Below, piece by piece: positions 12,605 through 24,732 of a DNA stretch of 32,000 nucleotides. The notes under the pieces were generated by a model. That model did not search any database, had not been told where the DNA came from, and saw only the letters and a list, made by a program, of their open reading frames with translations. How positions within the stretch are numbered: position 1 is the stretch's first letter; each line of letters begins with the position of its first letter. The position numbers and the translations under genes were made by a program. The stretch comes from Cupriavidus necator (GTDB lineage: Bacteria > Pseudomonadota > Gammaproteobacteria > Burkholderiales > Burkholderiaceae), in NCBI RefSeq assembly GCF_016127575.1, contig NZ_CP066019.1, forward strand, positions 2,160,001 through 2,192,000, written 5' to 3'.

Positions 12605-12636
12605 GTCGGCTCCTGAGGGATGGAAAATGTGAAGGG

Positions 12637-12670
12637 ATGCCGTGGCACTCACCACTGCGTGCCGCGGCAT
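12637..12670. promoter_or_regulatory. 12-bp-arm inverted repeat upstream of the CMD-cupin operon
   Basis: ATGCCGTGGCAC (12637-12648), 10-nt spacer, GTGCCGCGGCAT (12659-12670). 11 of 12 positions are complementary (one T:G). It lies 33-66 nt upstream of ATG 12604. Confidence 0.35.
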
Positions 12671-13459: not shown

Positions 13460-13499
13460 AGGCTGCCGGGCCCGGGCGCATGCATCGCTAGGGGCGGTA

Positions 13500-14873
13500 T
13501 TAGTCAGCAATGGTCTCCAGCGCTCTGCCACGGGTCTCGATGCCGAACCGGAACACGATGCCGGCCGCAGCAAGGAAACACAGCGCGCCAAGGCAGAACA
13601 CTCCAGCCTGGCCGGCAACGGGCAGAACCAGCCCCACCAACGCCGGACCCAGCAGCGATCCGATCCGCCCGACCGTCGACGCCATCCCGCAACCTGAAGC
13701 GCGCGCCCGCGTGGGATACAGTTCCGGCGTATAGGTATAGAGCACTGCCCACATGCCGAACATGAAGAACTGCATCATGCCGCCGGAAAGGAAGAGCGCC
13801 ATGGGGTCGGGACTGGACCCGGCGACCCTGCCGTAGATAAACACCATGCACGCCCCGCCCACCAGAGTCGCCACGCATGCTGGCTTGCGCCCCCAGCGCT
13901 CCACCGCCCATGCGGCCCAGAGAAAGCCGGGAATGCCGCCGATTGAGATATACACCGTGTACAGCACGGATTTGGTTACCCCGAGGCCCGATTGCTGCAG
14001 CAACGCGCCAATCCAGGTATTGAGGCCGTAGAACCCCAGCAGGGCGAAGAACCACAGGCCCCATACGGTCAAGGTCCGACTACGGTACTCGCGGGACCAG
14101 AGCACGCGCAGGCCCGATGTGGCCGGCTCCGCCGCCGCTGCCGCCGGCGTGACTTCCGGCAACGCATCGAGCTTCATCCGCCGCATGACCGATTGCTCGA
14201 TACGGTCGACAATGTCGGCCGCTTCGGCATGGCGTCCCTGCGACTCCAGCCAGCGCGGGGACTCGGGCACAAAGCGGCGGACTACGATCAGGAATAGCGC
14301 CGGGACCGCGCCGAGCAGGAACATCGTGCGCCAGGTGTAGGCGCTCAGCACGTAGTACGACATCAGCCCAGCGCAAATGAAGGCGATCGGCCAGTTTCCG
14401 TCCATCAGCGCCAGGTACTTGCCGCGCTGGCGCGCGGGAATGAATTCCGACATCAGCGTCTGCGCCAATGGCAGCTCCATGCCCATGCCGAGCCCGAGCA
14501 ACAGCCGATACGCACCCAGCTCCATGGGACCGTTCGCGGTGGAGCACAGATAGCTGCCCACGCCCCAGATGATCATGCTGACCTGGAAGACCGGCTTGCG
14601 GCCGAACTTGTCCGCCAGCACCCCGGAGCTGATCGCGCCAGTGGCCATGCCGACGAAGCTGGCGCTGCCGAGCATGCCGGCCTGCGCTGCGGTCAACCCG
14701 AATTCCGTCCGAATCGATCCCAGCAGATACGTCATCATGGCCAGGTCGAGGTTATCGAAAAAGAAGGCCAGCGCAATGATGGCAAACAGAAGGCGGTGAT
14801 ACCCGCATACGGGTAGCCGTTCCAGCCGGTCGCCGGTGCGCACGCGCATCAGCTCGAGAGAGGTAAGCTTCAT
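13500..14873 (-). CDS. MFS transporter (sugar-porter / metabolite:H+ symporter-like)
   Basis: ATG 14873, with GGAG 5 nt upstream. Gives a 457-aa protein with about 12 hydrophobic segments. MFS motifs ADKFGRKPVF and VPESPRWL. Confidence 0.9.
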   Translation of the reverse strand: MKLTSLELMRVRTGDRLERLPVCGYHRLLFAIIALAFFFDNLDLAMMTYLLGSIRTEFGLTAAQAGMLGSASFVGMATGAISSGVLADKFGRKPVFQVSMIIWGVGSYLCSTANGPMELGAYRLLLGLGMGMELPLAQTLMSEFIPARQRGKYLALMDGNWPIAFICAGLMSYYVLSAYTWRTMFLLGAVPALFLIVVRRFVPESPRWLESQGRHAEAADIVDRIEQSVMRRMKLDALPEVTPAAAAAEPATSGLRVLWSREYRSRTLTVWGLWFFALLGFYGLNTWIGALLQQSGLGVTKSVLYTVYISIGGIPGFLWAAWAVERWGRKPACVATLVGGACMVFIYGRVAGSSPDPMALFLSGGMMQFFMFGMWAVLYTYTPELYPTRARASGCGMASTVGRIGSLLGPALVGLVLPVAGQAGVFCLGALCFLAAAGIVFRFGIETRGRALETIAD

Positions 14874-14950: not shown

Positions 14951-15310
14951 CTACTGTCGCGTGGAGACGCAGCCGCGACGCGCGCGGGAACGCCAAGGTC
15001 TGTCTCGCAGGTGCCAAGCCAATTGCCGCGGGTCGCGTGGGCCCCAAAAAAAAAGGTTCATCGCCGATTTCCGGGGAAGGCCACTGGTCCGACGGCCGAG
15101 TTCGGCCAGCTTGAGTCGCTCAAGGAAATTTCACGACTGCCCGCTCCCGGACCGATAAGAGACAGTCGTCAATGATGCTGTGACCGTCGGCTCGTAGACC
15201 GTTGCGGCGGTCGCGAACAGAAGCCCTGTGTCGCAGAAGAGGCTTGGTCGTGGCTGCCTGTCCGTAGGCAGACACGTTCGACACCAGGGCGGCCGGGCAA
15301 GCGGCTCAGA

Positions 15311-16090
15311 TCACGCAGTCGGAACAGTTCCTCCGTCGATGACGTACTCAGTGCCGGTGATGGCGCTGGCGCGGCCAGAGACGAGGAAACCAATGAGTTC
15401 TGCCACTTCCCGGGGTGAGCATGGCCGGCCAAGAGGAATGCCGCCGAGCGAATCCATGATGACCTTGCGGGCGCCTTCCGCGTCGATGCCGCCTTGGCGG
15501 GCGATCTCGGCAACGAGACCTGCGGCGGCATCCGTCTCGACCCAGCCCGGTGAGACACGCACGACGCGAACGCCCTTCGGACTGACCTCCTTGGACAAGG
15601 CTTTGCTGTAGTTTGACAGGGCAGCCTTGGCGGCGGCATAGGCAATCGTCGCCTCCGGCAACGGTAATTGCCGCTGGATCGACGTGACGTGGATAATGAC
15701 GCCCGAACGCTGCTCGACCATCGAGGGCAACAGCGCGCGATCGATGCGCACTGCCGGGAATAGGTTCAGGTTCAATGCCTTGTTCCATTCATCGTCATCT
15801 AGCACGCTGAAGCCACCGGCCGGTGCAGATGAGCCGCCCACGACGTGCACGACTATATCGACGCCACCGAACCGCTTGAGCACGGCGTCGACAATGGCTT
15901 TACAGCCCTTGGCCGTCGTGATGTCCGCCCCGATGAACCGTTCTTCGGCAAGTTCATCGGGACGGGAACGCGCCGTCGTCAGAACGTTCGCACCTGCCTC
16001 GCAAAGGCGTGCGACGACGGCTTTGCCGACGCCTTTCGTTCCGCCCGTAACGAGCGCCCGAAGCCCCAGAAGTTCGGGTGCGGAGCTCAT
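15311..16090 (-). CDS. SDR-family oxidoreductase
   Basis: 259 aa. Motifs [10 protein letters not shown] (TGxxxGxG) and catalytic YAAAKAA (YxxxK). Its ATG overlaps the stop of the upstream NTF2-like gene (ATGA at 16087-16090). Confidence 0.9.
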
Positions 16091-16416
16091 TGGCGAATCT
16101 CCAGCGACGCAATCCTGCCGCCGGCCAGGACGAACGTGTAGGTCAGCTCGACCGGGCTGCCAGGGAATGTGCCCGTGAGTCGTGCGTGCATCGTCACAGT
16201 GGCGCCGTTCTGGGAGACGTCCAACGGCTCAATGCTGTACTGGTACCTGGTTTTGCTGTCCTTCTTCCAGGCCTGGATTGCTTCCAGCCCCTTGATCGTG
16301 CGGCCTTCGTCCCGCACAACGGCATCGGCGGTAAAGCAGTTCGAGAGAGGGGCGGTGTCCGTGACGGTTTCCGCGAGCAGATAGGCATCCAGTGGCGGAG
16401 GCAGCATCATGTTCAT
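16087..16416 (-). CDS. NTF2/SnoaL-like small protein
   Basis: 109 aa; GAGG 9 nt upstream of ATG 16416. The size and the pattern [23 protein letters not shown]...[10 protein letters not shown] fit SnoaL-like polyketide-cyclase-fold proteins. Translationally coupled to the SDR gene. Confidence 0.7.
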
Positions 16417-16506
16417 CGGGGTTTACCTCAACGTGAAGGTTTGCATGCCCCAATCATGGCGCTACAGTTACCGTATCGCAAGAACGCACAAAAAAGTAAG
16501 TAACCC

Positions 16507-16845
16507 TTGGCTAACCGAAAAAACTACACCCCCGCGACTGCCGCAATCGATGTCGAAGCCGCATTCAAGCTGCTGGAAGGCCGCTGGAAGCTGGTGATTT
16601 TGTTTCACCTTTTCGGTGGTCAGGTACAGCGCTTTTCGGACCTCGAGAGACTGATCCCCGGCATCACACAGAAGATGCTTGCCCAGCAGCTACGCCGCCT
16701 CGAAGCGGACGGCATCGTGACACGTACGGTCTATCATCAGGTGCCGCCGAAGGTGGACTACCGCCTGACTGATTGGGGCCAGGCGTTGTGCCCGGCACTG
16801 GATGCGATCCTGACATGGGCGGAGCACCGTGAAGACTTTCCGTAG
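16507..16845 (+). CDS. HxlR-family transcriptional regulator
   Basis: 112 aa. Signature LLEGRWKLVILFHLFGGQVQRFSDLERLIPGITQKMLAQQLRRLEADGIVTRTVY. The only in-frame start is TTG at 16507. Divergent from the NTF2-SDR pair. Confidence 0.85.
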   Translation: MANRKNYTPATAAIDVEAAFKLLEGRWKLVILFHLFGGQVQRFSDLERLIPGITQKMLAQQLRRLEADGIVTRTVYHQVPPKVDYRLTDWGQALCPALDAILTWAEHREDFP

Positions 16846-17156
16846 GCTGCGACGAGCTTGCGTGCGTGACGCTAGCTGTCATCCAGAACTCCAATTCGCA
16901 AAGTCGTCGACGTGGTCTCATCCGCGATGGTCTCATGTCGCGCTGGAACCTGACGGTCGTCCATCTCATTTGAGAGGCAGCACTGGGGCGAACTGAGACG
17001 GCCGACCGCGCTGTGAAATCGTGTCTCCGATTTGTTCGACACTTGCAGTGCAGCATGCAATGAAGGCATCAAATCAGAATATGCGGATATCCTAATGTTC
17101 ACCTCTCCGCTCACAGGAAGGCGTAACAGTTCGCTCGGGCATCGTATAGCGCGTGA

Positions 17157-17297
17157 TGCCGGCACCCGCTGAACACAAGCGTCGTTGAGGGCATCAACAA
17201 CACCATCAAAGTCATCAAGCGCCGAGCCTACGGCTACCGTGTCGAGGACTACTTCTTCCTGAAGATCAAGGCGGCGTTCCCCGGAATTCCTCGTTGA
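17157..17297 (+). pseudogene. ISL3-family transposase, C-terminal fragment only (IS scar)
   Basis: Reads CRHPLNTSVVEGINNTIKVIKRRAYGYRVEDYFFLKIKAAFPGIPR* with TGA at 17295-17297, a typical ISL3 transposase C-terminus. An in-frame stop lies just upstream (17154-17156) and no remainder of the gene is present. Absent from the ORF track. Confidence 0.75.
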
Positions 17298-17300
17298 ACC

Positions 17301-17329
17301 AAAAAGAAGAGGTGCCGGAGCACCTCTTC
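17301..17329 (-). terminator. Rho-independent terminator of the RidA/PurA-like/flavoprotein operon
   Basis: On the minus strand: GAAGAGGTGC-TCCG-GCACCTCTTC (perfect 10-bp stem, 4-nt loop) followed by TTTTT. It starts 20 nt after the stop at 17350. Confidence 0.75.
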
Positions 17330-17349
17330 ATGTCGCGCGATGGCCTGAC

Positions 17350-17976
17350 TCACCTGGAAGCAAACCTGTGGGGATCGAATGCCTCCGGCGGCAAGCCGGA
17401 CAGCGTGGCACCGGACTGGAAGGGATAGCGCAGGTACGGCGCTTTCGGCTGACCCGGTGGCGAGTACTGTCCATCGGCAAGAATGCGTTTCTTCGCGCTC
17501 ATCTCACGAATCTCGCAGCGATAGGCAACGATCTGGCTGGCTGCGCCGTCCTCGATCGGCGAGTAGTCTTTCTCGGGCCGGAACTTGTCCAGCGCCTGGT
17601 ACTGGTGCGCACGCACCTCGTCGGCACTGTCACGCAGCGTGACTTCGCATCGCGCGATGGCGCTGTAGTACTCGAGGCTTGTATTCTGTCCCTTCGGTGC
17701 CTTCAGCAAGGCCACGGGCCGGTCGACCTCGATCGTGACCAGGGGATTCGACCGAATCGCCGAGGCCAGCTTTCCGAATCTGGAACTGTGGATCAGGAAG
17801 GCGTCGCCGGTGAAGGTAAAGCTCTGCGCGGTAATGTAGGGATAGGGTGTGTCATGCACCGCGACCCGGCAGATCAGCTCGTTCCGGAGGAAGGCCTCGA
17901 TGGCCGGCCAGTCGGTCCAGGCCAGGTCGGTCCGGCGCATTTCGTTGTGAAGGTAGGCGGGTGTCGTGGTCGTCAT
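17350..17976 (-). CDS. Pyridoxamine 5'-phosphate oxidase-like (NimA/Pyridox_ox_2-type) split-barrel flavoprotein
   Basis: ATG 17976 overlaps the upstream stop (ATGA at 17973-17976). The 208-aa protein starts MTTTTPAYLHNEMRRTDLAWTDWPAIEAFLRNELICRVAVHDTPYPYITAQSFTF, the pattern of the PNPOx-like family. The upstream part of the 241-aa ORF is non-coding. Confidence 0.75.
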   Translation of the reverse strand: MTTTTPAYLHNEMRRTDLAWTDWPAIEAFLRNELICRVAVHDTPYPYITAQSFTFTGDAFLIHSSRFGKLASAIRSNPLVTIEVDRPVALLKAPKGQNTSLEYYSAIARCEVTLRDSADEVRAHQYQALDKFRPEKDYSPIEDGAASQIVAYRCEIREMSAKKRILADGQYSPPGQPKAPYLRYPFQSGATLSGLPPEAFDPHRFASR

Positions 17977-19349
17977 GGTCTCGTCTGCTGATGGTTCTGA
18001 AAATGCCGCATCTGCGCGCGTCCGGGCCCCAAACCAATTCCGCGCAAGGGCCGGCCAATGGCATCCGCCAGCCATTCAAGCAGGGCTTCCAGTTGCGGAG
18101 GCAGGGGGGAAGTGGCATCCCTCGGGATGGTGTCTTCGGCAAAGGCAGGAAACCGCACCACGCGCTGGCCACCGGTGTCAGTGGCGCCGGCAACGACCGG
18201 GATGCAGCGCTCGCGCGTGCGGTCAAAGGCCGCCAGGCTGTCGCACTTGTTCAGATACACCTCGTCAACCCCGCATTGCCGTACAGCAAGCCGGAGCTGC
18301 GCCACGTCAAGCAGCCCTACCCGCCGTGGCCGGCCGGTTCCGGTGCCGTACTCATTCGACAGCATCCGGATCGCCACGCCGATGGAGAATTCGTCCGCTT
18401 CGGCGAGCAAAGCCAGCGGATCCAGCCTGGCCGCCTCGTCGGCCCCGCCGCGGCCCTCCCGCGCCGCATCGGCGCAATAGGCCTCGGATCGCCCTGCGCC
18501 AAGTTCGGTTGGCAACGGCCCGCTGCCGACCCGGGATACGATCGCCTTGGCGACGCCGATGGTCTTGCGGTGATACTTGCATGGGAGGTCGCCACCCACA
18601 TACGCGTAAGAAGGCATCGTATGGCTGGACGTGACCCAAGGCTGAACGCCCTGCACCACATCGAGCATGACGGACTGCGCGCCCTCGAAGAGCACATTGG
18701 CACCCGCTTCGACCCGCCGCAAGAGCGCAACCGGATCGTCCGTCACGAACGGCTCAACCACCTTCCACGCCTGGCGCATCGCGTTCACCACGGCCACAAG
18801 ACCCTCGCCGTCGCCGTCGCGCTGCACGGCCAGCCGCATCATCTGCTCGAACACCCGGCTCCCGTCAACCACCAGGTCGCGGAGCTGAAACGAAGATCGC
18901 TCCCCTCCCCGCACGCGGGTCGCGAGATCCGCATAACACGGGCCGATGCCGTTGCCGGTGGTGCCAATCTGGGCGCCATCGTGGCGATCGGCCAGGACAT
19001 GGAGAGGCTGGACGACCGGACACCTGTCACTGATCGTCAACCGCCCGCCCAGATCGATCCCCTGCGCCGCGAGCATCTCGATTTCGGCTGCCAGTTGCTG
19101 CAACCCGATCACGCAGCCTGAGCCGATGTAGAGCGCAACGCCGGGATGCAGCACCCCGGAGGGGACCTGCCGTAGCCGCAAGGTTCCGTCAGGCGTGGCG
19201 ATGGTATGCCCGGCGTTCGCGCCGCCATTGAAGCGCGCAATCACCTCGTACTCGCCGGCGAGGTGATCGACGACCCGCGCCTTCCCCTCATCGCCATATT
19301 GCAGTCCGACCAGGACGTCGGCGTACCCCGCCTTTTTCGCGGTGCCCAT
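17973..19349 (-). CDS. Divergent adenylosuccinate synthetase (PurA)-fold GTP-dependent ligase, paralogue-like
   Basis: 458 aa. PurA motifs present: QYGDEGKAR (P-loop), GGANAGHT, GTTGNGIGP, FEGAQS, VTSS, SRVGSGPLPTEL, GTGTGRPRR, NKCD, GLGPGR. It deviates from canonical PurA at several substrate-site positions. It also carries an insertion of about 36 aa (see findings). Confidence 0.85.
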   Translation of the reverse strand: MGTAKKAGYADVLVGLQYGDEGKARVVDHLAGEYEVIARFNGGANAGHTIATPDGTLRLRQVPSGVLHPGVALYIGSGCVIGLQQLAAEIEMLAAQGIDLGGRLTISDRCPVVQPLHVLADRHDGAQIGTTGNGIGPCYADLATRVRGGERSSFQLRDLVVDGSRVFEQMMRLAVQRDGDGEGLVAVVNAMRQAWKVVEPFVTDDPVALLRRVEAGANVLFEGAQSVMLDVVQGVQPWVTSSHTMPSYAYVGGDLPCKYHRKTIGVAKAIVSRVGSGPLPTELGAGRSEAYCADAAREGRGGADEAARLDPLALLAEADEFSIGVAIRMLSNEYGTGTGRPRRVGLLDVAQLRLAVRQCGVDEVYLNKCDSLAAFDRTRERCIPVVAGATDTGGQRVVRFPAFAEDTIPRDATSPLPPQLEALLEWLADAIGRPLRGIGLGPGRAQMRHFQNHQQTRP

Positions 19350-19352
19350 CGC

Positions 19353-19817
19353 CTACGCGTCCAGCGCAAATGTCGCCTCGATCTCCACCGGGGCACCGAA
19401 GGGAAGGCTCGCCACGCCGAGCGCCAGGCGGGCATGGCGCCCTCTCTCTTCAAAGATCCGGTTCAGCAATTCCGACGCTGCATTGATCACCAGCGGCGCA
19501 TCATGGAAACCCGGCTCCGCCGCAACATAGCCTCCAACGCGGACGATGCCCCGGATTCGTTCGAAATCCCCATCGGTCGCTGCCGCCACCCAACCCAGCA
19601 GGTTGGCCAGGCACAACCGCGCGGCCTGCTGTGCCGCTTCGACGGTGACTGCGCCCGGGACCTTGCCGACGAAGACCGGCTTGCCGTCCTGAAGCGGCAA
19701 CTGCCCCGATACCGTCAGCAAACCATGGTGCAGGGTGTAAGGGACATAGTGCGCCTTGGGAAATTCCGTGGCAGGCAAGACAATGCCGGCAGCCTGGATA
19801 CGATCCATCACTGACAT
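19353..19817 (-). CDS. RidA/YjgF-family (reactive intermediate/imine deaminase) protein
   Basis: ATG 19817, with GAGGAG 5 nt upstream. The 154-aa protein contains YVPYTLHHGLLTVSGQLP and HARLALGVASLPFGAPVEIEATFAL. Its stop lies 3 nt before the PurA-like ATG. Confidence 0.85.
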   Translation of the reverse strand: MSVMDRIQAAGIVLPATEFPKAHYVPYTLHHGLLTVSGQLPLQDGKPVFVGKVPGAVTVEAAQQAARLCLANLLGWVAAATDGDFERIRGIVRVGGYVAAEPGFHDAPLVINAASELLNRIFEERGRHARLALGVASLPFGAPVEIEATFALDA

Positions 19818-19834
19818 ACTGACTCCTCGACTTG

Positions 19835-19879
19835 AAAAAGTGTCGGCGAAGTGAGCACGGTGCGGGCCTCCGCCGACAC
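19835..19879 (-). terminator. Terminator-like hairpin plus T5 directly upstream of the RidA ribosome-binding site (araC terminator or leader attenuator)
   Basis: On the minus strand: GTGTCGGCG (19879-19871), 22-nt loop, CGCCGACAC (19848-19840), TTTTT (19839-19835). Then 6 nt, then GAGGAG (19828-19823). Confidence 0.5.
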
Positions 19880-19919
19880 CACGACTGTGCCGCACAGTTA
19901 AGCCTTAGATTCGCGTGGC

Positions 19920-19948
19920 GACGCCAGTTGATGTCGCGCAGACGCCAA
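19920..19948. repeat. Direct repeat GACGCCA(G/A) x2 spaced exactly 21 bp in the RidA-operon leader (candidate AraC half-sites)
   Basis: GACGCCAG at 19920-19927 and GACGCCAA at 19941-19948. The same 7-mer recurs at 20819-20825, and in reverse orientation at 20749-20755, in the araC/hydrolase divergent spacer. Confidence 0.3.
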
Positions 19949-19963
19949 CCTGCCGGCTGGCGC

Positions 19964-20749
19964 CTAGTCGCCAGCCATGTCCCTGAAGTATTCGGTCGGC
20001 GTCATGCCCAGCGCACGCCTGAACATGGCACTGAAGGCACTTGGACTCTCATAGCCAAGTTGCAGCGCGATGTCCGTGACATGGCAGCCCTCGGCAAGCA
20101 GGCGTACCGCGGCCATCAGCCGGGCCTGCTGCTTCCAGCGGCTGTAGGTCATGCCCGTTTCTTCGGGAAACAGGCGGATGATGGTGCGCTCGCTGGCGCC
20201 GACCGAACGGCTCCACGCCGCCACGGAAGTCTCATCGGCAGGGTCCTCGAGGATCTTTGCGCAGATCTTGCTCAGCCGAGGGTCCTTGGGCATCGGCAGA
20301 TGCAGCGGCACCACGGAAAGCGGGCGCAGTTCCTGCAGCAGAAGCTGCACCACCAGGCCGTCGCGGCCGCTTTCGTCATAGTCCAGCGGCATGCGCACGG
20401 CGGCCGATATCAGTTCGCGCAGCAGCGGCGGCACAGCGACGACACAACAGTTGCGCAACTCATCAGGAATGGCATCAGCGCGAATATAGACCGTGCGCAT
20501 TTCCACATCGCCGCAGGCCTGCATGGCGTGCTCGACGTTGCACGGAACCCAGACCGCGCGTTGAGGCGGCACCACCCAGGAGCCGAAATCGGTGGTCACC
20601 AGGATAGCGCCCACATAGGCGTAGATCAGCTGGCCACGCGGGTGGGAATGCGCGGAGATATAGAAGCCGTCCTTCAGCTTGCGCGCCATCCCGCCCACTC
20701 GCCGGTCTATCGCCTGGTAGTCATCCCGGTTTTCGCTCTTTCCAAACAT
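19964..20749 (-). CDS. AraC-family transcriptional regulator with N-terminal cupin sensor domain
   Basis: ATG 20749 gives a 261-aa protein. Cupin-like HSHPRGQLIYAYVGAILVTT; C-terminal AraC HTH (VAAWSRSVGASERTIIRLFPEETGMTYSRWKQQARL...LGYESPSAFSAMFRRALGMTPTEYF). Confidence 0.9.
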   Translation of the reverse strand: MFGKSENRDDYQAIDRRVGGMARKLKDGFYISAHSHPRGQLIYAYVGAILVTTDFGSWVVPPQRAVWVPCNVEHAMQACGDVEMRTVYIRADAIPDELRNCCVVAVPPLLRELISAAVRMPLDYDESGRDGLVVQLLLQELRPLSVVPLHLPMPKDPRLSKICAKILEDPADETSVAAWSRSVGASERTIIRLFPEETGMTYSRWKQQARLMAAVRLLAEGCHVTDIALQLGYESPSAFSAMFRRALGMTPTEYFRDMAGD

Positions 20750-20886
20750 GGCGTCTTTGCGATAGTCGTTGTCATCCAGGGGCGCGCGCAGCCACACGCC
20801 GATACGTATCTTTGGCCGGACGCCAAATGCGTCGCAACGATCAAATGGAATCGAGGCATCGGTCCCACAGTCTGGAGCCAAAAGTA

Positions 20887-21744
20887 ATGTCAGTGTATCG
20901 AAACTTCAATCAGGAAGAACTGGACAAGCAGTACAACGTCAGGGCGGGAATTCCCGGGTTCCAGGACATCTTCAAGGGATGGGAGAACACCAGCGCCGCA
21001 TTCCGTCGCGCCCATCCCGTAAAGGAGAACCTTGCGTATGGCCTGGACGCCAAGCAGGCGCTGGACTTCTTTCCCGCAGCCACCAGGAGCCGTCCGTTGC
21101 TCGTCTTCATTCATGGCGGCTACTGGCAATCGCTGGACAAGTCGGACTTCAGCCACGTTGCCGCCCCGTACCTGAAGCACGACATCAACGTCGCCGTGGT
21201 GAACTACCGGCTCGCCCCGGAGGTCGGGATGGCCGAGATCGTCCGCGATAATCGCGACGCCGTGGCATGGCTCTACGGCAATGCGGCCGAACTGGGGTTC
21301 GATGCGAACCGCATCTATGTATCCGGCCACTCAGCCGGCGGACATCTCACCGCCACGCTGGCAGGAACCGATTGGGAGTCGTTCGGCCTCCCCGCTGACG
21401 TGCTCAAGGGCGGATGCGCGATCAGCGGCCTGTATGACCTGGAACCTATCCGCCTGTGCTATCTCAACAAGGTGGTCGGCCTGACCGAGGCGGATGTCGC
21501 CAGCTACAGCCCGATTCATCATGTTCCACGAGTGAAATTGCCCATGATCCTGACCGCTGGCGGGGATGAGTCGCCGGAGTACCACCGGCTGCAGCGCGAA
21601 TACCAGGCGCTGCTGGGCGAATGCGGCTTTGACGTGCAGGTGGTGGTGCAGGAGCGCGGCCATCATTTCGACGCGGTCGACCTGCTGGGCGATGCCGATG
21701 GCGCCCTGGCCGCGTCGGTGTTGCGCATGATCGAGCGCGCCTGA
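20887..21744 (+). CDS. Alpha/beta hydrolase (esterase / arylformamidase-like)
   Basis: ATG 20887, with GGAG 9 nt upstream. The 285-aa protein has the oxyanion motif FIHGGYW and the nucleophile elbow GHSAGGH, plus a C-terminal His (ERGHHFD). Confidence 0.85.
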   Translation: MSVYRNFNQEELDKQYNVRAGIPGFQDIFKGWENTSAAFRRAHPVKENLAYGLDAKQALDFFPAATRSRPLLVFIHGGYWQSLDKSDFSHVAAPYLKHDINVAVVNYRLAPEVGMAEIVRDNRDAVAWLYGNAAELGFDANRIYVSGHSAGGHLTATLAGTDWESFGLPADVLKGGCAISGLYDLEPIRLCYLNKVVGLTEADVASYSPIHHVPRVKLPMILTAGGDESPEYHRLQREYQALLGECGFDVQVVVQERGHHFDAVDLLGDADGALAASVLRMIERA

Positions 21745-21896: not shown

Positions 21897-22496
21897 CTAC
21901 CCCACCCTCTTCCGGTCGCTGACTACCACCAGCGCCTGTGCCAGGGTCTTGCCAATCGAGCGCGAGCGATGCGGGATCGATGCGTTGAAATACAGCGAGT
22001 CGCCAGCCCGCATCCGTACCGTGCGGTCATCGAACAGCACCTCCATCTCGCCCGATACGACGAAGATCAGCTCTTCGCCGGCATGGCTGGCCATTGGCTG
22101 GTCTTGTGCCAGCGTGAACGGCGGCACCATGACGAAGGGCTGCATCGCCTTGTCCACGCGCTCCGTGGCAATGGCTTCGTAGGTATAGCCCTGGCGCTCG
22201 GCGGACGGGCTGAACGGAACCCGGTCCGCGGCCTTGACCAGCAGGATCTCATTGCCGCGCTGCGGCTTGGCGATCAGCTGGTCGACGGTCACGTCGAGGG
22301 CCTCGGCCAGCTTGAGCACCGTACCGATGGTCGGCGACGACAGGCCGCGCTCCAGCTTGGACAGGTAGCTCTTGGTCAGCGATGCCCGTTGCGCCAGTTC
22401 CTCAAGCGTCAGCCCGTTGAGCTTGCGCAGTGCCGCCAGCCGTTCGGCGATGGTCGAAAGAGCGGCCGGAGCGCCCGATTCTTGCTTCCTGATCAT
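21897..22496 (-). CDS. XRE-family HTH regulator with C-terminal cupin domain
   Basis: 199 aa. HTH_3 (IAERLAALRKLNGLTLEELAQRASLTKSYLSKLERG) and cupin_2 (HAGEELIFVVSGEMEVLFDDRTVRMRAGDSLYF). Confidence 0.9.
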   Translation of the reverse strand: MIRKQESGAPAALSTIAERLAALRKLNGLTLEELAQRASLTKSYLSKLERGLSSPTIGTVLKLAEALDVTVDQLIAKPQRGNEILLVKAADRVPFSPSAERQGYTYEAIATERVDKAMQPFVMVPPFTLAQDQPMASHAGEELIFVVSGEMEVLFDDRTVRMRAGDSLYFNASIPHRSRSIGKTLAQALVVVSDRKRVG

Positions 22497-22587
22497 CCGC
22501 AGTCACTGGTTAGAAGCGCCCGGACAGGCGCATGGGTCGGCTCGGATTGTAAGGTCGGCACGACACATCGGCAACTCGGTTTGCCTA

Positions 22588-22607
22588 AATGACACTTCGG
22601 TGTCATT
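22588..22607. promoter_or_regulatory. Perfect 8-4-8 palindrome AATGACAC-TTCG-GTGTCATT in the XRE / Bug divergent spacer (operator candidate)
   Basis: Seen at 22588-22607. It overlaps a GACAC(A/T)TCGG direct repeat (22562-22571 and 22591-22600) and a third GACAC at 22611. It lies 39-58 nt upstream of the Bug ATG at 22646. Confidence 0.4.
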
Positions 22608-22645
22608 ATAGACACACTTGTTTCCCCACCCGCCCCCGAAGGAGC

Positions 22646-23635
22646 ATGCAAGTGAGTCCCAAGCGCCCCCATCTCGCAGGTGCAGCAGCCCTGTTTGTCA
22701 CCCTCTTCCTCAGTGGTTTGCCTGCTGCCCACGCGGCCGGCTATCCGGATCGTCCCATTACGCTGGTGGTGCCATTCGGCGCCGGCGGCATCACTGACCT
22801 GGTGGCACGCGCCACCGGCAAGGCCCTGTCTGAACAGCTTGGCCAGTCGATCGTCGTGGAAAACCGCCCCGGCGCGGGCGGCAACATCGCGGCAGATTTC
22901 GTACGTCGTGCCCGGCCCGATGGCTACACACTGATGTTTGCCACCGTGGGCGTCCTTGCGGTCAATCCGCATACGGACGTCAAGGTCAGCTTTGATAGCG
23001 CGAAGGACTTCACCTATATCTCGCTCGTCGGTTCCACGCCCCATCTGGTGGTGGTCGGCGCCGACGTCCCGGCCAGGACGCTGCCCGAACTGATCAAGCT
23101 CGCGCAACGCCAGCCCGGCGCCGTCAGCGTAGGCACCGCAGGCGTCGGCAGCTCGCCGTACCAGGGCATGCGCGTGCTGCAGGACGCGGCCCGGGCCGAA
23201 TTCCTGCACGTACCGTTCAAGAGCGGCGCTGAATCGGTGACCAACGTTGTCTCGGGGCAGGTCAACATGACATTCGAGGCCACGCCGCAGGTGATGCCAT
23301 TCGTCGCCTCCGGCAAGCTGCGGGCGTTGGCCGTTGCCAATCCGCGGCGGCTGGCCACCGCGCCGGACGTGCCGGCGACACCGGAACTGGGCCTGCCGAC
23401 CATCGTGTCCGGTTCGGTGGCAGGCCTGATTGCGCCTGCCGGCCTTGATGCCGCCATCGTGAAGAAGCTCAACACAGCCATTGCCGGCGTGGTATCGAAC
23501 CCCAAGTTCAAGGCCACGCTGATGGCACAGGGCACTGAACCGATGTCATCGTCGCCCGAACAATTCCGCAAGCTGATCAAAGAAGAAGACCAGCGCTGGT
23601 CGGCCTTGCTCAAGGCTGACAACAAGACCAGGTAA
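22646..23635 (+). CDS. Bug/TctC-family tripartite tricarboxylate transporter periplasmic binding protein
   Basis: Signal peptide ...AALFVTLFLSGLPAAHA, then the Bug signature YPDRPITLVVPFGAGGITDLVAR. The ATG at 22646 is only 1 nt from GAAGGAG. The in-frame GTG at 22652 has a better 7-nt spacing and may be the true start. Confidence 0.9.
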   Translation: MQVSPKRPHLAGAAALFVTLFLSGLPAAHAAGYPDRPITLVVPFGAGGITDLVARATGKALSEQLGQSIVVENRPGAGGNIAADFVRRARPDGYTLMFATVGVLAVNPHTDVKVSFDSAKDFTYISLVGSTPHLVVVGADVPARTLPELIKLAQRQPGAVSVGTAGVGSSPYQGMRVLQDAARAEFLHVPFKSGAESVTNVVSGQVNMTFEATPQVMPFVASGKLRALAVANPRRLATAPDVPATPELGLPTIVSGSVAGLIAPAGLDAAIVKKLNTAIAGVVSNPKFKATLMAQGTEPMSSSPEQFRKLIKEEDQRWSALLKADNKTR

Positions 23636-23682
23636 CGCGGACTGAAAGCTCCCCTTCTCCAGCACAACGAAAGGAAAATCCC

Positions 23683-24459
23683 ATGGCCAGCACCATGCAA
23701 CTGAGCAAGAGCGAAATCGTCGCCGCCTCGCTCCAGAAAATCCAGATGGAACTGCGCACGCAGAAAATGCCGCTGCGCGAGGCAGTAGCCGAAACCTGCC
23801 GGATCCTGTTCGCCTTCGGGCACGACTCCGGCCTCTCAGGCCAGATCACCGCGCGCGCAGAACAGCCTGGCACCTACTGGACCCAGCGCCTGGGTCTGGG
23901 CTTCGACGAAATCACGTCCGACAACCTGCTGCTCGTCAACGAAGACCTGGAAGTCCTGGAAGGCAGCGGCATGCCGAACCCGGCCAACCGCTTCCATTCC
24001 TGGCTCTACCGTGCGCGTCCGGACCTGAACTGCATTGTCCATTCGCACGCGCCGCACGCCTCGGCGCTGGCGATGCTGGAGGTGCCGCTGGTCATTTCGC
24101 ATATGGACACGTGCGTGCTCTACGACCAGTGCGCGTTCCTTGAGAAATGGCCTGGCATTCCTGTCGGCAATGAAGAGGGAGAAATCATCTCGGGAGCCCT
24201 TGGTGACAAGAAGGCCATCCTGTTGTCCCACCACGGCCTGCTGGTGGCCGGTGCCACGGTGGAAGAAGCCTGCGTACTGGGTGTGATGTTCGAGCGTGCC
24301 GCCCGGCTGCAACTGCTGGCCATGGCGGCGGGCCCGATCCAGCCGATCCCGCACGATCTGGGCTGCGAAGCGCAGCGCTGGGTCAGCACCCAAAAGCGGT
24401 TCGAAGCTACCTTTGCCTACTACTCGCGGCGTGCGCGTCGCGGGCTGGGCGCCGAATAG
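23683..24459 (+). CDS. Class II aldolase/adducin-family protein (aldolase or decarboxylase)
   Basis: 258 aa; AGGA 8 nt upstream. Zinc-ligand pattern HSHAPH plus a later SHHGLLVAG, typical of the class II aldolase fold. Confidence 0.85.
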   Translation: MASTMQLSKSEIVAASLQKIQMELRTQKMPLREAVAETCRILFAFGHDSGLSGQITARAEQPGTYWTQRLGLGFDEITSDNLLLVNEDLEVLEGSGMPNPANRFHSWLYRARPDLNCIVHSHAPHASALAMLEVPLVISHMDTCVLYDQCAFLEKWPGIPVGNEEGEIISGALGDKKAILLSHHGLLVAGATVEEACVLGVMFERAARLQLLAMAAGPIQPIPHDLGCEAQRWVSTQKRFEATFAYYSRRARRGLGAE

Positions 24460-24732
24460 CAACAGGGCGCCGACGGGCCGGCGCAAGCACGGCCAGGACA
24501 TGGCGAAGTCTGCAGTCTGCTGAGAACCTGAACCACGCCTGGCCCTGCGCCATTGCCGCTTGCTTGATATGAGAAGCGCAAGCTCCGACAGTATTGGTCG
24601 AATGGGATAATCGCGTCATGGCAGGCAGGGCGGGAATCGCAGATCTGCCGCCGATGGCGCAGGTGAGTGACGGCGCCATAGCCGGCGCCCGCCGCCGGCG
24701 CTCATATCCCTACCCAAGAACGGAGACATGCC

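What the first reader, a model, noticed from the sequence alone, without database searches (positions are those of the whole stretch)
17301..21744. AraC-linked RidA / PurA-like ligase / NimA-like flavoprotein operon with divergent arylformamidase-like hydrolase: candidate uncharacterised small-molecule pathway
The minus strand carries, in order:
- an AraC/cupin regulator (19964-20749)
- a 146-nt leader
- RidA (19353-19817)
- a 3-nt gap
- a divergent adenylosuccinate-synthetase-fold protein (17973-19349)
- a PNPOx/NimA-like flavoprotein joined by an ATGA overlap (17350-17976)
- a strong intrinsic terminator (17301-17329)
Divergent from the regulator is an alpha/beta hydrolase with HGGYW and GHSAGG motifs (20887-21744). 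No other purine-biosynthesis gene lies nearby, so this does not look like a housekeeping purA locus. The PurA fold activates a ring carbonyl with GTP and displaces the phosphate with an amine. Here it is tightly coupled to an imine deaminase, a flavoenzyme and an amidase-like hydrolase, under a ligand-sensing AraC. I cannot map this combination onto any characterised pathway. It suggests catabolism, salvage or detoxification of an N-heterocycle or nucleotide analogue. An ISL3 scar lies directly beyond the terminator, which is consistent with accessory origin.
Basis: partly seen in the sequence, partly recalled or inferred. Interest (0 to 1): 0.8.

Follow-up and report, generated by a model that had tools for sequence, protein, structure and literature searches.

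The report
AraC regulon carrying a spare adenylosuccinate synthetase
A conserved six-gene, single-regulator gene set in soil Burkholderiales (importer, deacylating hydrolase, haem/flavin split-barrel protein, imine deaminase) carries a second, intact copy of the AMP-making enzyme adenylosuccinate synthetase, probably to protect AMP synthesis while the cell breaks down a compound that poisons that enzyme.

Summary
All five genes, the junctions, the motifs and the terminator are real (Cupriavidus necator). The unit is larger than reported. It is a six-gene AraC regulon of three transcription units, each preceded by the same 28-bp operator. The sixth gene, an uptake-type MFS transporter (13500-14873), was displaced 2.3 kb by a strain-specific insertion ending in the ISL3 remnant. 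The six genes are syntenic in 26 loci from 8-9 genera.

The PurA-like protein keeps every tested GTP, IMP and catalytic residue and most aspartate-site residues of adenylosuccinate synthetase (AdSS). Its 36-residue insertion and the R131 change are shared with apparently housekeeping enzymes of Patescibacteria and Bdellovibrionota. It is a second copy: Trinickia carries a canonical hisZ-purA on the same contig.

The same module exists without any AdSS, and in Azospirillum with a canonical-type AdSS. AdSS is therefore an add-on recruited twice, not an obligatory ligase step.

The "PNPOx" resembles Anf3/NimA and, more distantly, haem N-hydroxylamine dehydratases. The "RidA" is a Rid1 imine deaminase. 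A sister paralogue sits in an L-Dap/N-oxygenase biosynthetic cluster.

Best reading (about 0.35): import and breakdown of an N-acyl-N-hydroxy, hadacidin-like antimetabolite, with a protective spare AdSS. The substrate is unproven.

The parts
13500..14873 (-). MFS transporter, the sixth gene of the regulon. It is most similar to the aromatic-acid/H+ symporter (uptake) family.
   Evidence: It is 92-95% identical to the MFS gene lying directly downstream of the split-barrel gene in other Cupriavidus, and 64-76% identical in other genera. It scores 285 bits on TIGR00895, below the 418.55 cut-off. It is colinear with L011, L013 and L014.
14989..15016 (-). Operator box 3 (TGGCACCTGCGAGACAGACCTTGGCGTT), 116-143 nt upstream of the MFS ATG.
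   Evidence: Found. The box sits at the same position in all 10 Cupriavidus loci, and also in Trinickia, Paraburkholderia and Herminiimonas.
15018..17300 (.). Strain-lineage-specific 2.28-kb insertion that splits the regulon. It is not part of the system. It holds an SDR (15311-16090, -), a SnoaL_2 protein (16087-16416, -), an HxlR regulator (16507-16845, +) and an ISL3 transposase C-terminal remnant (17181-17294, +).
   Evidence: blastn colinearity with L011, L013, L014 and L015 breaks exactly at 15017 and 17301.
17306..17329 (-). Intrinsic terminator after the split-barrel gene. It is native to the module.
   Evidence: Scan result. Homology with other Cupriavidus loci runs through it to 17301.
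17350..17976 (-). PF12900 split-barrel protein (Anf3/NimA-like). It is a probable haem and/or flavin enzyme acting on an N-O or amine nitrogen and yielding an imine.
   Evidence: Pfam hit. The AF2 model has pLDDT 87. Foldseek finds Anf3, MSMEG_4975, NimA, NohD and PipS/KtzT. It is the most conserved enzyme of the set, at 69-92% identity.
17973..19349 (-). Second adenylosuccinate synthetase, of the long-insert subtype (four-helix insertion at about residues 285-330).
   Evidence: Family hits. The AF2 model has pLDDT 87 and pTM 0.89, with the insertion at pLDDT 89-97. TM-score is 0.79-0.87 to solved AdSS structures. dN/dS is 0.13-0.18.
19353..19817 (-). Rid1-subfamily imine/enamine deaminase, with the conserved arginine at R130.
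   Evidence: Pfam PF14588. PDB relatives are 3d01 (E 4.5e-38) and PA0814 (E 6e-27). The Rid1 activity of PA0814 is reported in PMC5619798. R130 was located.
19920..19947 (-). Operator box 1 (TGGCGTCTGCGCGACATCAACTGGCGTC). It is a direct repeat of TGGCGTC spaced 21 bp, upstream of the Rid-AdSS-split-barrel operon.
   Evidence: Its first half is the most conserved block of the AraC-Rid intergenic alignment across 7 genera. It is an exact match. Position-specific recurrence is shown.
19964..20749 (-). AraC/XylS-family regulator with an N-terminal cupin ligand-binding domain.
   Evidence: HTH_18, HTH_AraC and AraC_binding hits. Orthologues are 261 aa long in L001 and L006.
20749..20776 (+). Operator box 2 (TGGCGTCTTTGCGATAGTCGTTGTCATC). 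It faces the hydrolase gene, abuts the AraC start codon, and ends 110 nt before the hydrolase ATG.
   Evidence: It lies at the same position in all Cupriavidus loci and in Herminiimonas.
20887..21744 (+). Alpha/beta hydrolase of the HGGYW/GHSAG (kynurenine-formamidase-like) branch of the hormone-sensitive-lipase family. It is a candidate deacylase or deformylase.
   Evidence: Pfam and NCBIfam hits. PDB relatives are 9n8r (E 4e-47), 2pbl, and Drosophila kynurenine formamidase 4e11 (E 1.4e-18).

Best explanation
The locus is a self-contained, horizontally mobile, six-gene AraC regulon for import and breakdown of a small N-acylated, probably N-oxygenated amino-acid-like compound. It carries a spare adenylosuccinate synthetase (AdSS) as a protective add-on.

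Proposed sequence of events:
1. The cupin-AraC protein senses the compound. It activates three promoters through one 28-bp operator.
2. The AAHS-like MFS symporter imports the compound.
3. The formamidase-like alpha/beta hydrolase removes an acyl (formyl) group.
4. The split-barrel haem/flavin protein converts the freed hydroxylamine or amine into an imine.
5. The Rid1 protein hydrolyses the imine to an oxo-acid plus ammonia.
6. The co-translated AdSS is a genuine IMP + aspartate + GTP enzyme. It keeps AMP synthesis running because the compound or an intermediate inhibits the housekeeping PurA.

Hadacidin (N-formyl-N-hydroxyglycine) is the model substrate that fits every step. It would give formate, then N-hydroxyglycine, then iminoacetate, then glyoxylate plus NH3.

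What is shown and what is inferred:
- Shown: the gene set, the shared operator, synteny, the intact AdSS residue inventory, second-copy status, and the dispensability and double recruitment of AdSS.
- Inferred: the direction of transport, each chemical step, the identity of the substrate, and inhibitor insensitivity.
For: One regulon:
- The operator lies before the Rid operon, the hydrolase gene and the MFS gene in the window.
- It lies at the same three places in all 10 Cupriavidus loci, against 1 background hit in 944 kb.
- The first half-site recurs before the Rid operon in Trinickia, Paraburkholderia, Herminiimonas, most Pandoraea, Caballeronia and P. typographi loci. It also lies before the MFS-Rid-split-barrel operon of the AdSS-less variant.

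Six and only six genes are conserved, in 26 loci from 8-9 genera. One copy is on a mobilizable Caballeronia plasmid.

The PurA-like protein is a true AdSS:
- D13, K16, N38, H41, T128, T129, R143, Q224, T239, V273, R303, R305 and D333 are conserved across the clade, with single-sequence exceptions. T301 is T or S and K331 is K or R.
- The fold matches solved AdSS structures at TM 0.79-0.87.
- The same subtype lies among housekeeping genes in candidate-phyla-radiation (CPR) bacteria and Bdellovibrionota.

It is a second copy. Canonical hisZ-purA lies on the same Trinickia contig.

AdSS is an add-on:
- The five-gene module occurs without AdSS in L097 and L098.
- A Rid-split-barrel pair occurs with TctC plus gamma-glutamyltranspeptidase in L091.
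- Azospirillum has a canonical-type AdSS, 56% identical to E. coli PurA, inside the module.

The sister clade of the paralogue is embedded in a conserved cluster of L-Dap genes plus an AurF-like N-oxygenase. It occurs in about 22 Pandoraea species and three actinomycete genera. This context suits self-resistance to an AdSS-directed N-oxygenated amino acid.

Enzyme clues:
- The split-barrel model resembles NimA, Anf3 and, more distantly, the haem N-hydroxylamine dehydratase NohD. NohD makes an imine that releases NH3 (PMC12576811).
- Rid1 proteins are imine deaminases (PMC5619798).
- The hydrolase carries the HGGYW/GHSAG motifs and matches kynurenine formamidase.
- The MFS is closest to uptake symporters.

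From general knowledge: hadacidin and alanosine, the classical aspartate-site AdSS antimetabolites, are both N-hydroxylated amino acids.
Against: - No inducer, substrate or kinetic datum exists, and no paper on this module was found.
- An uptake transporter alongside a resistance gene is only coherent if the compound is used as a nutrient.
- The split-barrel protein is closer to Anf3, NimA and BH0577 than to NohD. Sequence identity is 12-20% and TM to NohD is about 0.57. Equivalence of H63, T99 and K162/163 to the NohD His/Thr/Lys could not be checked.
- The hydrolase is below every NCBIfam cut-off.
- Nothing in the sequence proves inhibitor insensitivity. T300V and R304P also occur in canonical Burkholderia PurA.
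- Tight translational coupling Rid-AdSS-split-barrel would equally suit a pathway role.
- A canonical purA was shown in Trinickia, not in C. necator itself.
Confidence: 0.35

Rival explanations
1. Nucleotide-carrier pathway. The AdSS is a true pathway enzyme. It couples a hydroxylamine-type intermediate (hydroxylamine, N-hydroxyglycine or similar) to C6 of IMP in place of aspartate. The split-barrel enzyme then dehydrates or reduces the N6-hydroxy adduct. Rid1 hydrolyses the resulting imine, releasing AMP plus an oxo-acid. The nitrogen is thereby assimilated through the adenylate pool.
For: - Gene order and coupling are conserved: Rid, a 3-nt gap, AdSS, an ATGA overlap, then the split-barrel gene.
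- E. coli AdSS is reported to make N6-hydroxy-AMP from IMP and hydroxylamine and to run the reaction in reverse. ADE12 overexpression lowers 6-hydroxylaminopurine mutagenesis about 7-fold in yeast (PMC12026682).
- The basic residue at position 130/131 is lost in nearly all G1 proteins (G1 is the AraC-cluster clade) and in the Pandoraea G2 proteins (G2 is the biosynthetic-cluster clade). The motif there is GTTGNG, whereas many apparently housekeeping relatives have GTTKNG.
- The four-helix insertion directly precedes the aspartate loop.
- The split-barrel protein is related to N-O-processing enzymes.
Against: - The module works without a dedicated AdSS in L097, L098 and L091, although a housekeeping PurA could substitute there.
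- The aspartate carboxylate-binding arginines R303 and R305 are fully retained. That is unexpected for an enzyme specialised on a non-aspartate amine.
- There is no precedent for enzymatic processing of N6-hydroxy-N6-alkyl-AMP.
Confidence: 0.2
2. Flux or regulatory isozyme. The extra AdSS simply raises or de-regulates AMP synthesis, or purine-nucleotide-cycle flux, when the module is induced. For example, it could be insensitive to AMP, GDP or ppGpp feedback, or could help deaminate aspartate made by the pathway. No inhibitor is involved.
For: - The AdSS residue inventory is intact.
- The gene is inducible and co-transcribed, judging from the shared operator.
- A canonical-type AdSS can fill the same slot in Azospirillum.
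Against: - This does not explain why a sister paralogue is fixed inside an N-oxygenase/L-Dap biosynthetic cluster.
- It does not explain why this particular catabolic module, rather than others, recruited AdSS twice.
- No purB or AMP-deaminase gene accompanies it.
Confidence: 0.15
3. The protein is a neofunctionalised PurA-fold ligase that phosphorylates a ring carbonyl of an N-heterocycle or nucleotide analogue other than IMP and aminates it. This would be an obligatory step of a catabolic, salvage or detoxification pathway.
For: - The protein is below the NCBIfam purA equivalog cut-offs, at 282 and 252 bits against 402 and 396.
- Its context is accessory.
- The MFS is similar to aromatic-acid symporters.
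- PurZ is a precedent for substrate switching in this fold.
Against: - All IMP phosphate, ribose and base contacts are conserved.
- Apparently housekeeping relatives in CPR bacteria and Bdellovibrionota share the insertion and also lie below the cut-offs.
- The PurZ model scores 98 bits against a cut-off of 300.
- AdSS is dispensable for the module, and a canonical type can take its place.
Confidence: 0.1
4. Housekeeping purA, or a chance juxtaposition of unrelated genes.
For: Public records annotate the protein simply as adenylosuccinate synthetase.
Against: - A canonical purA coexists on the same contig in Trinickia.
- Several Pandoraea species carry two paralogues of this clade.
- One copy is plasmid-borne.
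- The taxonomic distribution is patchy.
- Synteny holds in 26 loci and the operator is shared.
Confidence: 0.02

Closest known systems
Adenylosuccinate synthetase PurA (EC 6.3.4.4), e.g. E. coli 1ADE/1CG0 and Burkholderia thailandensis 3UE9
   Same: - The fold is the same, at TM 0.79-0.87.
- It has the GDEGK P-loop with the catalytic Asp and the catalytic His.
- All IMP contacts are retained: N38, T128, T129, R143, Q224, T239 and V273.
- The aspartate-loop residues T301, R303 and R305 are retained.
- The NKxD guanine-specificity motif is retained.
   Different: - It is only 29-32% identical to canonical enzymes.
- It has a confidently modelled four-helix insertion of about 36 residues just before the aspartate loop.
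- It has a 5-residue deletion in the 120s loop.
- R131 is replaced by N, with no basic residue at position 130.
- It is below the NCBIfam equivalog cut-offs.
- It is AraC-regulated, accessory and a second copy.
Target-duplication (self-resistance) genes next to pathways that make or handle an inhibitor of that target
   Same: - A second, divergent copy of an essential enzyme is co-localised and co-regulated with small-molecule pathway genes.
- A sister paralogue lies inside a biosynthetic cluster.
- The function was recruited independently twice.
   Different: - Here the context of the window's copy is catabolic or uptake-type rather than biosynthetic.
- No inhibitor is known, and insensitivity is untested.
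- The literature search found no AdSS example of this kind.
Haem-dependent N-hydroxylamine dehydratase NohD and piperazate synthases PipS/KtzT (PF04299), and NimA/Anf3/MSMEG_4975 (PF12900-type split barrels)
   Same: - The split-barrel fold carries a C-terminal extension.
- The family has an invariant His (H63), Thr (T99) and Lys pair (K162/K163), at sequence positions similar to NohD H57, T98 and K167.
- The partner Rid protein fits an imine product.
   Different: - The Pfam family is PF12900, not PF04299.
- Identity is only 12-20%.
- The best structural matches are Anf3 and TA1372 (TM about 0.7), not NohD (about 0.57).
- The cofactor and residue equivalence were not established.
Rid1 subfamily imine deaminases (P. 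aeruginosa PA0814, A. baylyi ACIAD3089)
   Same: - The hit to PA0814 (9bk9) has E 6e-27.
- The RidA-type arginine is conserved (R130).
- The Rid1 proteins PA0814 and ACIAD3089 deaminate 2-aminoacrylate and amino-acid-derived imines (PMC5619798).
   Different: - Its physiological substrate is unknown.
- Here it is fused into an operon with AdSS and a split-barrel protein.
Alpha/beta-fold kynurenine formamidase (Drosophila KFase 4E11) and the HaHSL-type esterases
   Same: It has the HGGYW oxyanion motif, the GHSAG nucleophile elbow and a similar overall length.
   Different: - The match to KFase is only E 1.4e-18.
- The HaHSL_fam score is 176 bits against a cut-off of 320.
- No tryptophan or kynurenine genes are nearby.
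- The substrate is unknown.

Membership tests
Adenylosuccinate synthetase (PurA) | Full-length match to Pfam PF00709 | tested here: met
   316 bits, residues 12-447 against profile positions 1-415 of 416.
Adenylosuccinate synthetase (PurA) | Score above the NCBIfam equivalog cut-offs (NF002223, TIGR00184) | tested here: not met
   281.7 bits against 402, and 251.5 against 395.55. Apparently housekeeping relatives in CPR bacteria and Bdellovibrionota also fall short, at 340-364 bits. The models therefore do not cover this subtype.
Adenylosuccinate synthetase (PurA) | Catalytic and GTP-binding residues: the GDEGK P-loop with D13 and K16, H41, and K331/D333 of the (N/T)KxD motif | tested here: met
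   D13, K16, H41 and D333 are invariant in the 10-sequence alignment and conserved in all 87 clade members. K331 is K, with R in a few.
Adenylosuccinate synthetase (PurA) | IMP contacts N38, T128, T129, R143, Q224, T239 and V273 | tested here: met
   All are conserved in the window protein. Single-sequence exceptions occur elsewhere in the clade.
Adenylosuccinate synthetase (PurA) | Aspartate-site residues T301, R303, R305 and R131 | tested here: inconclusive
   T301 (T or S), R303 and R305 are conserved. R131 is N and no basic residue sits at position 130. T300G is largely specific to clades G1 and G2.
Adenylosuccinate synthetase (PurA) | AdSS fold | tested here: met
   The AF2 model has pLDDT 87. 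Foldseek gives TM 0.79-0.87 to solved AdSS structures and lower values to PurZ/DgsS.
Adenylosuccinate synthetase (PurA) | IMP + L-Asp + GTP activity, and complementation of a purA auxotroph | not testable with these tools
   This needs enzyme assays and genetics.
Housekeeping purA locus | Sole AdSS gene of the genome, in the hflK-hflC-hisZ-purA context | tested here: not met
   Trinickia acidisoli has a canonical purA in that context (L090) on the same 4.07-Mb contig as the module (L001). This was not checked directly for C. necator.
PurZ / DgsS (2-aminoadenine pathway) | Score above the NF038379 cut-off | tested here: not met
   98.3 bits against 300. TM is 0.58-0.62.
RidA (archetypal subfamily) | Score above the TIGR00004 cut-off | tested here: not met
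   21.7 bits against 106.25.
Rid1 subfamily | Close similarity to PA0814/ACIAD3089 and presence of the catalytic arginine | tested here: met
   9bk9 at E 6e-27, 3d01 at E 4.5e-38, and 9bkb (ACIAD3089) at E 2.4e-08. R130 lies in the HAR-LALGVASLP segment.
Pyridoxamine-5'-phosphate oxidase (PdxH) | Membership of the PdxH-type family (PF01243 or a curated NCBIfam model) | tested here: not met
   Only PF12900 is hit, and there is no NCBIfam hit.
NimA/Anf3-type split barrel (PF12900) | Pfam match and structural similarity | tested here: met
   PF12900 at 89.8 bits. Anf3 at TM 0.71 and NimA at 0.60-0.63. The profile hits 2hti, 2fg9 and 6rk0.
NohD / piperazate synthase (PF04299, haem) | Family match, axial His, and the Thr/Lys dyad | tested here: inconclusive
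   There is no sequence-level match. Structural similarity is TM 0.54-0.64. Invariant H63, T99 and K162/163 exist, but their spatial equivalence could not be checked.
Alpha/beta-fold kynurenine (aryl)formamidase | HGGYW and GHSAG motifs, similarity to solved KFase, and formamidase activity | tested here: inconclusive
   The motifs are present. 4e11 matches at E 1.4e-18. Activity cannot be tested here.
AraC/XylS regulators | C-terminal double HTH plus an N-terminal cupin ligand domain | tested here: met
   HTH_18 at 83 bits, HTH_AraC at 52 bits and AraC_binding at 31.6 bits. A direct-repeat operator with 21-bp spacing is also present.
Aromatic acid/H+ symporter MFS family (TIGR00895) | Score above the subfamily cut-off | tested here: not met
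   285 bits against 418.55. It is still the best-scoring family and ranks well above the efflux families.
Target-duplication resistance | An extra target copy co-localised with pathway genes, and an insensitive enzyme | tested here: inconclusive
   The extra copy and the co-localisation are shown. Insensitivity cannot be tested here.

The most novel reading that the evidence does not exclude
The AdSS paralogue is a nitrogen-loading enzyme. It condenses a hydroxylamine-type intermediate (hydroxylamine or an N-hydroxy amino acid freed by the hydrolase) with IMP. The split-barrel haem/flavin protein and Rid1 then convert the N6-hydroxy adduct to AMP plus an oxo-acid. This would be a previously unknown route that detoxifies and assimilates N-O nitrogen through the adenylate pool. 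The sister paralogue in the Pandoraea/actinomycete cluster would use the same chemistry biosynthetically.
Probability: 0.1. Interest if true: 0.85.

Novelty: new variant of a known kind. Interest (0 to 1): 0.62.

Why it matters
AdSS is an essential enzyme and a herbicide, antiparasitic and anticancer target. Dedicated accessory copies of it in bacteria have, as far as the searches here show, not been described.

- **A lead for discovery.** Three things point to an ecological exchange built around an AdSS-directed, N-oxygenated amino-acid antimetabolite. The first is a conserved inducible regulon that recruited AdSS twice. The second is a sister paralogue fixed inside an L-Dap/N-oxygenase cluster in about 22 Pandoraea species (cystic-fibrosis opportunists). 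The third is the same cluster in three actinomycete genera. This gives a resistance-gene-guided route to a new natural product and to its degradation and immunity pathway.
- **An unstudied enzyme subtype.** The locus exposes a long-insert AdSS subtype with no solved structure. Curated models do not cover it, and it appears to be the housekeeping enzyme in Patescibacteria and Bdellovibrionota.
- **A testable role for two poorly understood partners.** It gives Rid1 proteins and PF12900 split-barrel proteins a concrete physiological pairing.

If the spare-enzyme reading is wrong, the alternative is arguably more interesting. In that case AdSS would be a pathway enzyme for N-O nitrogen.

Tried and rejected
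- **Literature.** Searches for a described PurA paralogue, an alanosine- or hadacidin-linked AdSS gene, self-resistance AdSS, guessed H16_B locus tags, or a C. necator purA locus tag found nothing relevant. The published alanosine cluster description mentions no PurA homologue.
- **Canonical purA in C. necator.** I queried with a B. thailandensis PurA fragment rebuilt from the PDB alignment. The top 120 hits did not reach Cupriavidus. They did give the Trinickia canonical purA, which settled second-copy status for one module-bearing genome.
- **T300G/V and R304P as signs of an altered aspartate site.** R304P and T300V also occur in canonical Burkholderia PurA. They are therefore not diagnostic.
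- **The insertion and R131N as markers of neofunctionalisation.** Rejected, because apparently housekeeping relatives in CPR bacteria and Bdellovibrionota share them.
- **Additional conserved neighbours that might name the substrate.** None exist beyond the six genes. The glyoxylate-assimilation genes next to the Azospirillum copy, and the malic enzyme plus second RidA on the Caballeronia plasmid, are single observations.
- **More distant split-barrel homologues.** At 51-58% identity they lie in unrelated actinobacterial-type contexts and gave no clue.
- **Sigma-70 promoter scan.** It found nothing in the region.
- **Efflux-pump reading of the MFS.** Rejected as less likely on family scores.
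- **Unused tool.** The protein-representative search was not run, because it returns no names or genomic context.

Full report
**Origin and observation**

The PurA-like protein is 100% identical to the protein annotated as adenylosuccinate synthetase of Cupriavidus necator H16 (CAJ96776). Its longest source contig is 2.91 Mb, the size of chromosome 2.

- AraC: HTH_18 plus AraC_binding.
- A YjgF/Rid protein: PF14588 and PF01042.
- A full-length PF00709 protein of 458 aa.
- A PF12900 split-barrel protein.
- A BD-FAE/Abhydrolase_3 hydrolase with HGGYW and GHSAGG motifs.

The TAG-gcg-ATG junction and the ATGA overlap are read directly from the sequence. The terminator and the ISL3 C-terminal remnant are also real.

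I scanned one genome per species for relatives of the PurA-like protein. I followed this with tblastn of the window's proteins and clustering of all ORFs in the flanks.

Exactly six genes recur together, in the same order, in 26 loci:
- The order is hydrolase, divergent from AraC-Rid-AdSS-split-barrel-MFS.
- The loci come from Cupriavidus, Paraburkholderia, Trinickia, Caballeronia, Pandoraea, Herminiimonas, Pseudomonas typographi and an alphaproteobacterial MAG.
- One copy is on a 666-kb mobilizable Caballeronia plasmid.
- Nothing else in the flanks is conserved.

In the window, the orthologous MFS gene is at 13500-14873 on the minus strand. It is 92-95% identical to the gene that directly follows the split-barrel gene in other Cupriavidus.

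blastn colinearity with four Cupriavidus loci runs 21766-17301 and resumes at 15017-13500. The segment 15018-17300 is therefore a later insertion that split the regulon. It holds an SDR, a SnoaL_2 protein, an HxlR regulator and the ISL3 remnant. The terminator at 17306-17329 lies inside the conserved part.

**One operator, three promoters**

Across seven genera, the most conserved block of the AraC-Rid spacer is TTGGCGTCTGCGCGACA, followed 21 bp later by a second TGGCGTC.

The 28-bp box occurs three times in the window:
- 19920-19947(-), before the Rid operon.
- 20749-20776(+), facing the hydrolase and abutting the AraC start codon.
- 14989-15016(-), before the MFS gene.

A position-weighted scan finds boxes at exactly these three places in all ten Cupriavidus loci. 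It finds one hit in 944 kb of unrelated loci. A relaxed half-site pattern recovers the Rid-proximal box in most loci of the other genera, and the MFS-proximal box in Trinickia, Paraburkholderia and Herminiimonas.

The hydrolase, the three-gene operon and the transporter form one regulon. That the box at the AraC ATG implies autoregulation is my inference.

All six genes are under purifying selection, with dN/dS 0.04-0.18. The AdSS gene has the highest dN, 2.5-4 times that of AraC, MFS or the split-barrel gene.

**What the PurA-like protein is**

I aligned it to E. coli PurA, fetched. It keeps the following residues:
- The P-loop with D13 and K16, and the catalytic H41.
- All IMP contacts: N38, T128, T129, R143, Q224, T239 and V273.
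- The aspartate-loop residues T301, R303 and R305.
- The guanine-specificity K331 and D333.

The AlphaFold model (pLDDT 87, pTM 0.89) superposes on solved AdSS structures at TM 0.79-0.87. It fits PurZ/DgsS clearly less well.

It differs from canonical enzymes in these ways:
- Identity is 29-32%.
- An insertion of about 36 residues is modelled with high confidence as four short helices directly before the aspartate loop.
- The 120s loop is shorter.
- R131 is replaced by N.
- It scores 282 bits against the 402-bit equivalog cut-off.

These features do not mark a new function. The insertion and R131 replaced by N, Q or K occur throughout a clade that includes Peregrinibacteria and other Patescibacteria, Bdellovibrionota, and Desulfuromonadaceae MAGs. 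In those genomes the gene lies among housekeeping genes such as clpB, a lipid A acyltransferase gene and CNNM. It is also below the curated cut-offs there.

T300V and R304P occur in canonical B. thailandensis PurA too.

What is specific to the Burkholderiales and actinomycete subclade is a Gly at position 300. Nearly all G1 proteins and the Pandoraea G2 proteins have also lost any basic residue at 130/131. Their motif is GTTGNG, whereas many of the other members have GTTKNG. The meaning of this is open.

**It is a second copy**

The Trinickia acidisoli contig that carries the module (L001) also carries a canonical purA. That gene is 89% identical to B. thailandensis PurA and sits in the usual hflX-hflK-hflC-hisZ-purA context.

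Several Pandoraea species hold two paralogues of the long-insert clade.

I could not retrieve the canonical purA of C. necator itself. That point rests on analogy and on general knowledge that these prototrophs have a chromosome-1 purA.

**AdSS is an add-on to a five-gene core**

Homologues of the split-barrel protein led to three informative variants:
- Metagenomic contigs L097 and L098 carry MFS-Rid-split-barrel plus AraC and the hydrolase. Identity to the window's proteins is 51-71%, and the same operator half-site sits before the MFS gene. No AdSS of either type lies within 8 kb.
- Pseudorhodoferax (L091) has the Rid-split-barrel pair, overlapping by 4 nt. It lies behind a TctC receptor and a gamma-glutamyltranspeptidase, under a LysR regulator.
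- Azospirillum (L092) has MFS, Rid, split-barrel, hydrolase and AraC. An AdSS gene sits inside the module after the split-barrel gene. That AdSS is of the canonical type: 56% identical to E. coli PurA, with R131 present and no insertion. It is now frameshifted, as are the Rid and MFS genes there, and lies beside an IS66 element.

Two unrelated AdSS lineages were therefore recruited into the same module, at different positions. The module also functions without one. This argues against AdSS being an obligatory, neofunctionalised pathway ligase. It argues for ordinary AdSS activity being advantageous when the module is in use.

**The partners**

- **Rid protein.** It belongs to the Rid1 subfamily. 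It matches PA0814 at E 6e-27 and 3d01 at E 4.5e-38. It has the conserved arginine R130. PA0814 and ACIAD3089 deaminate 2-aminoacrylate and amino-acid imines (PMC5619798).
- **Split-barrel protein.** The model has pLDDT 87. It is structurally closest to the FAD+haem proteins Anf3 and MSMEG_4975, to TA1372 and to NimA. Further matches are the haem enzymes PaiB, the N-hydroxylamine dehydratase NohD and the piperazate synthases. NohD dehydrates N5-hydroxyornithine to an imine that releases ammonia. It uses an axial His and a Thr/Lys dyad (PMC12576811). The family here has invariant H63, T99 and K162/K163. I could not test whether they are spatially equivalent, and sequence profiles place the protein with BH0577, NimA and Anf3.
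- **Hydrolase.** It is nearest to 9n8r and 2pbl, and then to Drosophila kynurenine formamidase. It shares the HGGYW/GHSAG motifs but is below all curated cut-offs.
- **MFS transporter.** It scores best against aromatic-acid/H+ symporters and other uptake families, not efflux pumps.

**A sister paralogue in a biosynthetic cluster**

In a neighbour-joining tree, the AraC-module proteins (clade G1) are sister to a second clade, G2.

In G2 the gene is fixed between SbnB-like and AurF-like genes. The full operon is SbnA-like, SbnB-like, AdSS, AurF-like N-oxygenase, OTCase-like, PALP, DAO, an AMP-binding gene in some, and a flavin reductase. It occurs in about 22 Pandoraea species and in Kitasatospora, Actinoplanes and Micromonospora.

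SbnA and SbnB make L-2,3-diaminopropionate, the precursor of alanosine (bioRxiv 10.1101/763607). That published cluster has no PurA homologue.

G2 proteins keep the same AdSS residues.

**Interpretation**

I combined four points:
- The core logic: importer, amide or ester hydrolase, N-processing split-barrel protein, then imine deaminase.
- The optional, twice-recruited, catalytically intact AdSS.
- The sister paralogue in an N-oxygenase/L-Dap cluster.
- General knowledge that the natural aspartate-site AdSS antimetabolites, hadacidin and alanosine, are N-hydroxylated amino acids.

The best-supported reading is an inducible uptake-and-breakdown module for such a compound, with a spare AdSS that keeps AMP synthesis going. 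Hadacidin fits each step:
1. Deformylation gives N-hydroxyglycine.
2. Dehydration gives iminoacetate.
3. Rid-catalysed hydrolysis gives glyoxylate and ammonia.

I rate this reading at about 0.35, and hadacidin itself lower.

The main rival (about 0.2) keeps the same chemistry but makes AdSS a pathway enzyme. It would load a hydroxylamine-type amine onto IMP. E. coli AdSS is reported to accept hydroxylamine, and ADE12 protects yeast against 6-hydroxylaminopurine (PMC12026682). The tight Rid-AdSS-split-barrel coupling suits this reading.

Housekeeping purA and chance juxtaposition are excluded.

**Novelty**

No description of this regulon, of bacterial accessory AdSS paralogues, or of the long-insert AdSS subtype turned up in the searches. 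No solved structure carries the insertion.

Each component belongs to a known family. What is new is the combination, its regulation, and the inferred role of the AdSS copy. I therefore file it as a new variant of a known kind, with moderate-to-high interest, mainly as a lead to an AdSS-directed natural product and its degradation and immunity system.

Noticed in passing
L005 4666-14548; also L007, L030, L032, L035 and about 22 Pandoraea loci (L037-L063): A conserved biosynthetic-type operon: methyltransferase, SbnA-like, SbnB-like, long-insert AdSS paralogue, AurF-like N-oxygenase, OTCase-like, PALP, DAO, (AMP-binding), flavin reductase. It is shared between Pandoraea and the actinomycetes Kitasatospora, Actinoplanes and Micromonospora, with a LuxR-type gene next to it in P. 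pulmonicola. The product is unknown. It may be an L-Dap-derived N-oxygenated antimetabolite.
   Followed up: partly
L057, L066, L075, L085 and other MAG loci L043-L089: A long-insert AdSS subtype, with an insertion of about 36-44 aa before the aspartate loop and R131 replaced by N, Q or K. It appears to be the AdSS of Peregrinibacteria and other Patescibacteria, Bdellovibrionota and some Desulfuromonadaceae/Chromatiaceae MAGs. It scores below the NCBIfam purA equivalog cut-offs (340-364 bits against 402), and no solved structure contains the insertion.
   Followed up: partly
window 15018-17300: A 2.28-kb insertion is absent from four related Cupriavidus loci. It holds an SDR, a SnoaL_2 protein and a divergent HxlR regulator, and ends in the last 38 codons of an ISL3 transposase. 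It separates the MFS gene from the rest of its regulon in this strain.
   Followed up: yes
window 11638-13499: A second segment next to the MFS gene has no counterpart in L014, where homology jumps from window 13500 to 11637. It contains a carboxymuconolactone-decarboxylase-family ORF (12125-12868, -) and an ORF with no Pfam hit (12836-13459, +).
   Followed up: no
L092 5900-11900 (Azospirillum sp. INR13): A rearranged copy of the module in which MFS, Rid and a canonical-type purA all carry frameshifts. It is flanked by IS66 genes on one side and by a glyoxylate-assimilation set on the other (gcl, hyi, glxR, glycerate kinase and pyk by Pfam). It could be a decaying module or a poor assembly.
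   Followed up: partly
L009 (Caballeronia zhejiangensis plasmid p3) 1255-1953, 12546-15349, 18827-19230: The plasmid-borne module is followed by an NADP-malic enzyme and a second RidA-family gene. Two genes annotated as nucleoside 2-deoxyribosyltransferase and an integrase lie nearby.
   Followed up: no
L002 5665-6305 and 9392-10207 (Pandoraea sp. XY-2): In this complete genome the hydrolase is called as two short fragments, and no gene is called for the split-barrel protein, although tblastn finds it. This may be local pseudogenisation of the module.
   Followed up: no
window 21897-25707: Beyond the hydrolase lie an XRE-HTH/cupin regulator (21897-22496, -), two TctC/Bug-family receptors (22589-23635 and 24733-25707) and a class II aldolase (23683-24459). 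They are not conserved with the module in other genomes.
   Followed up: partly
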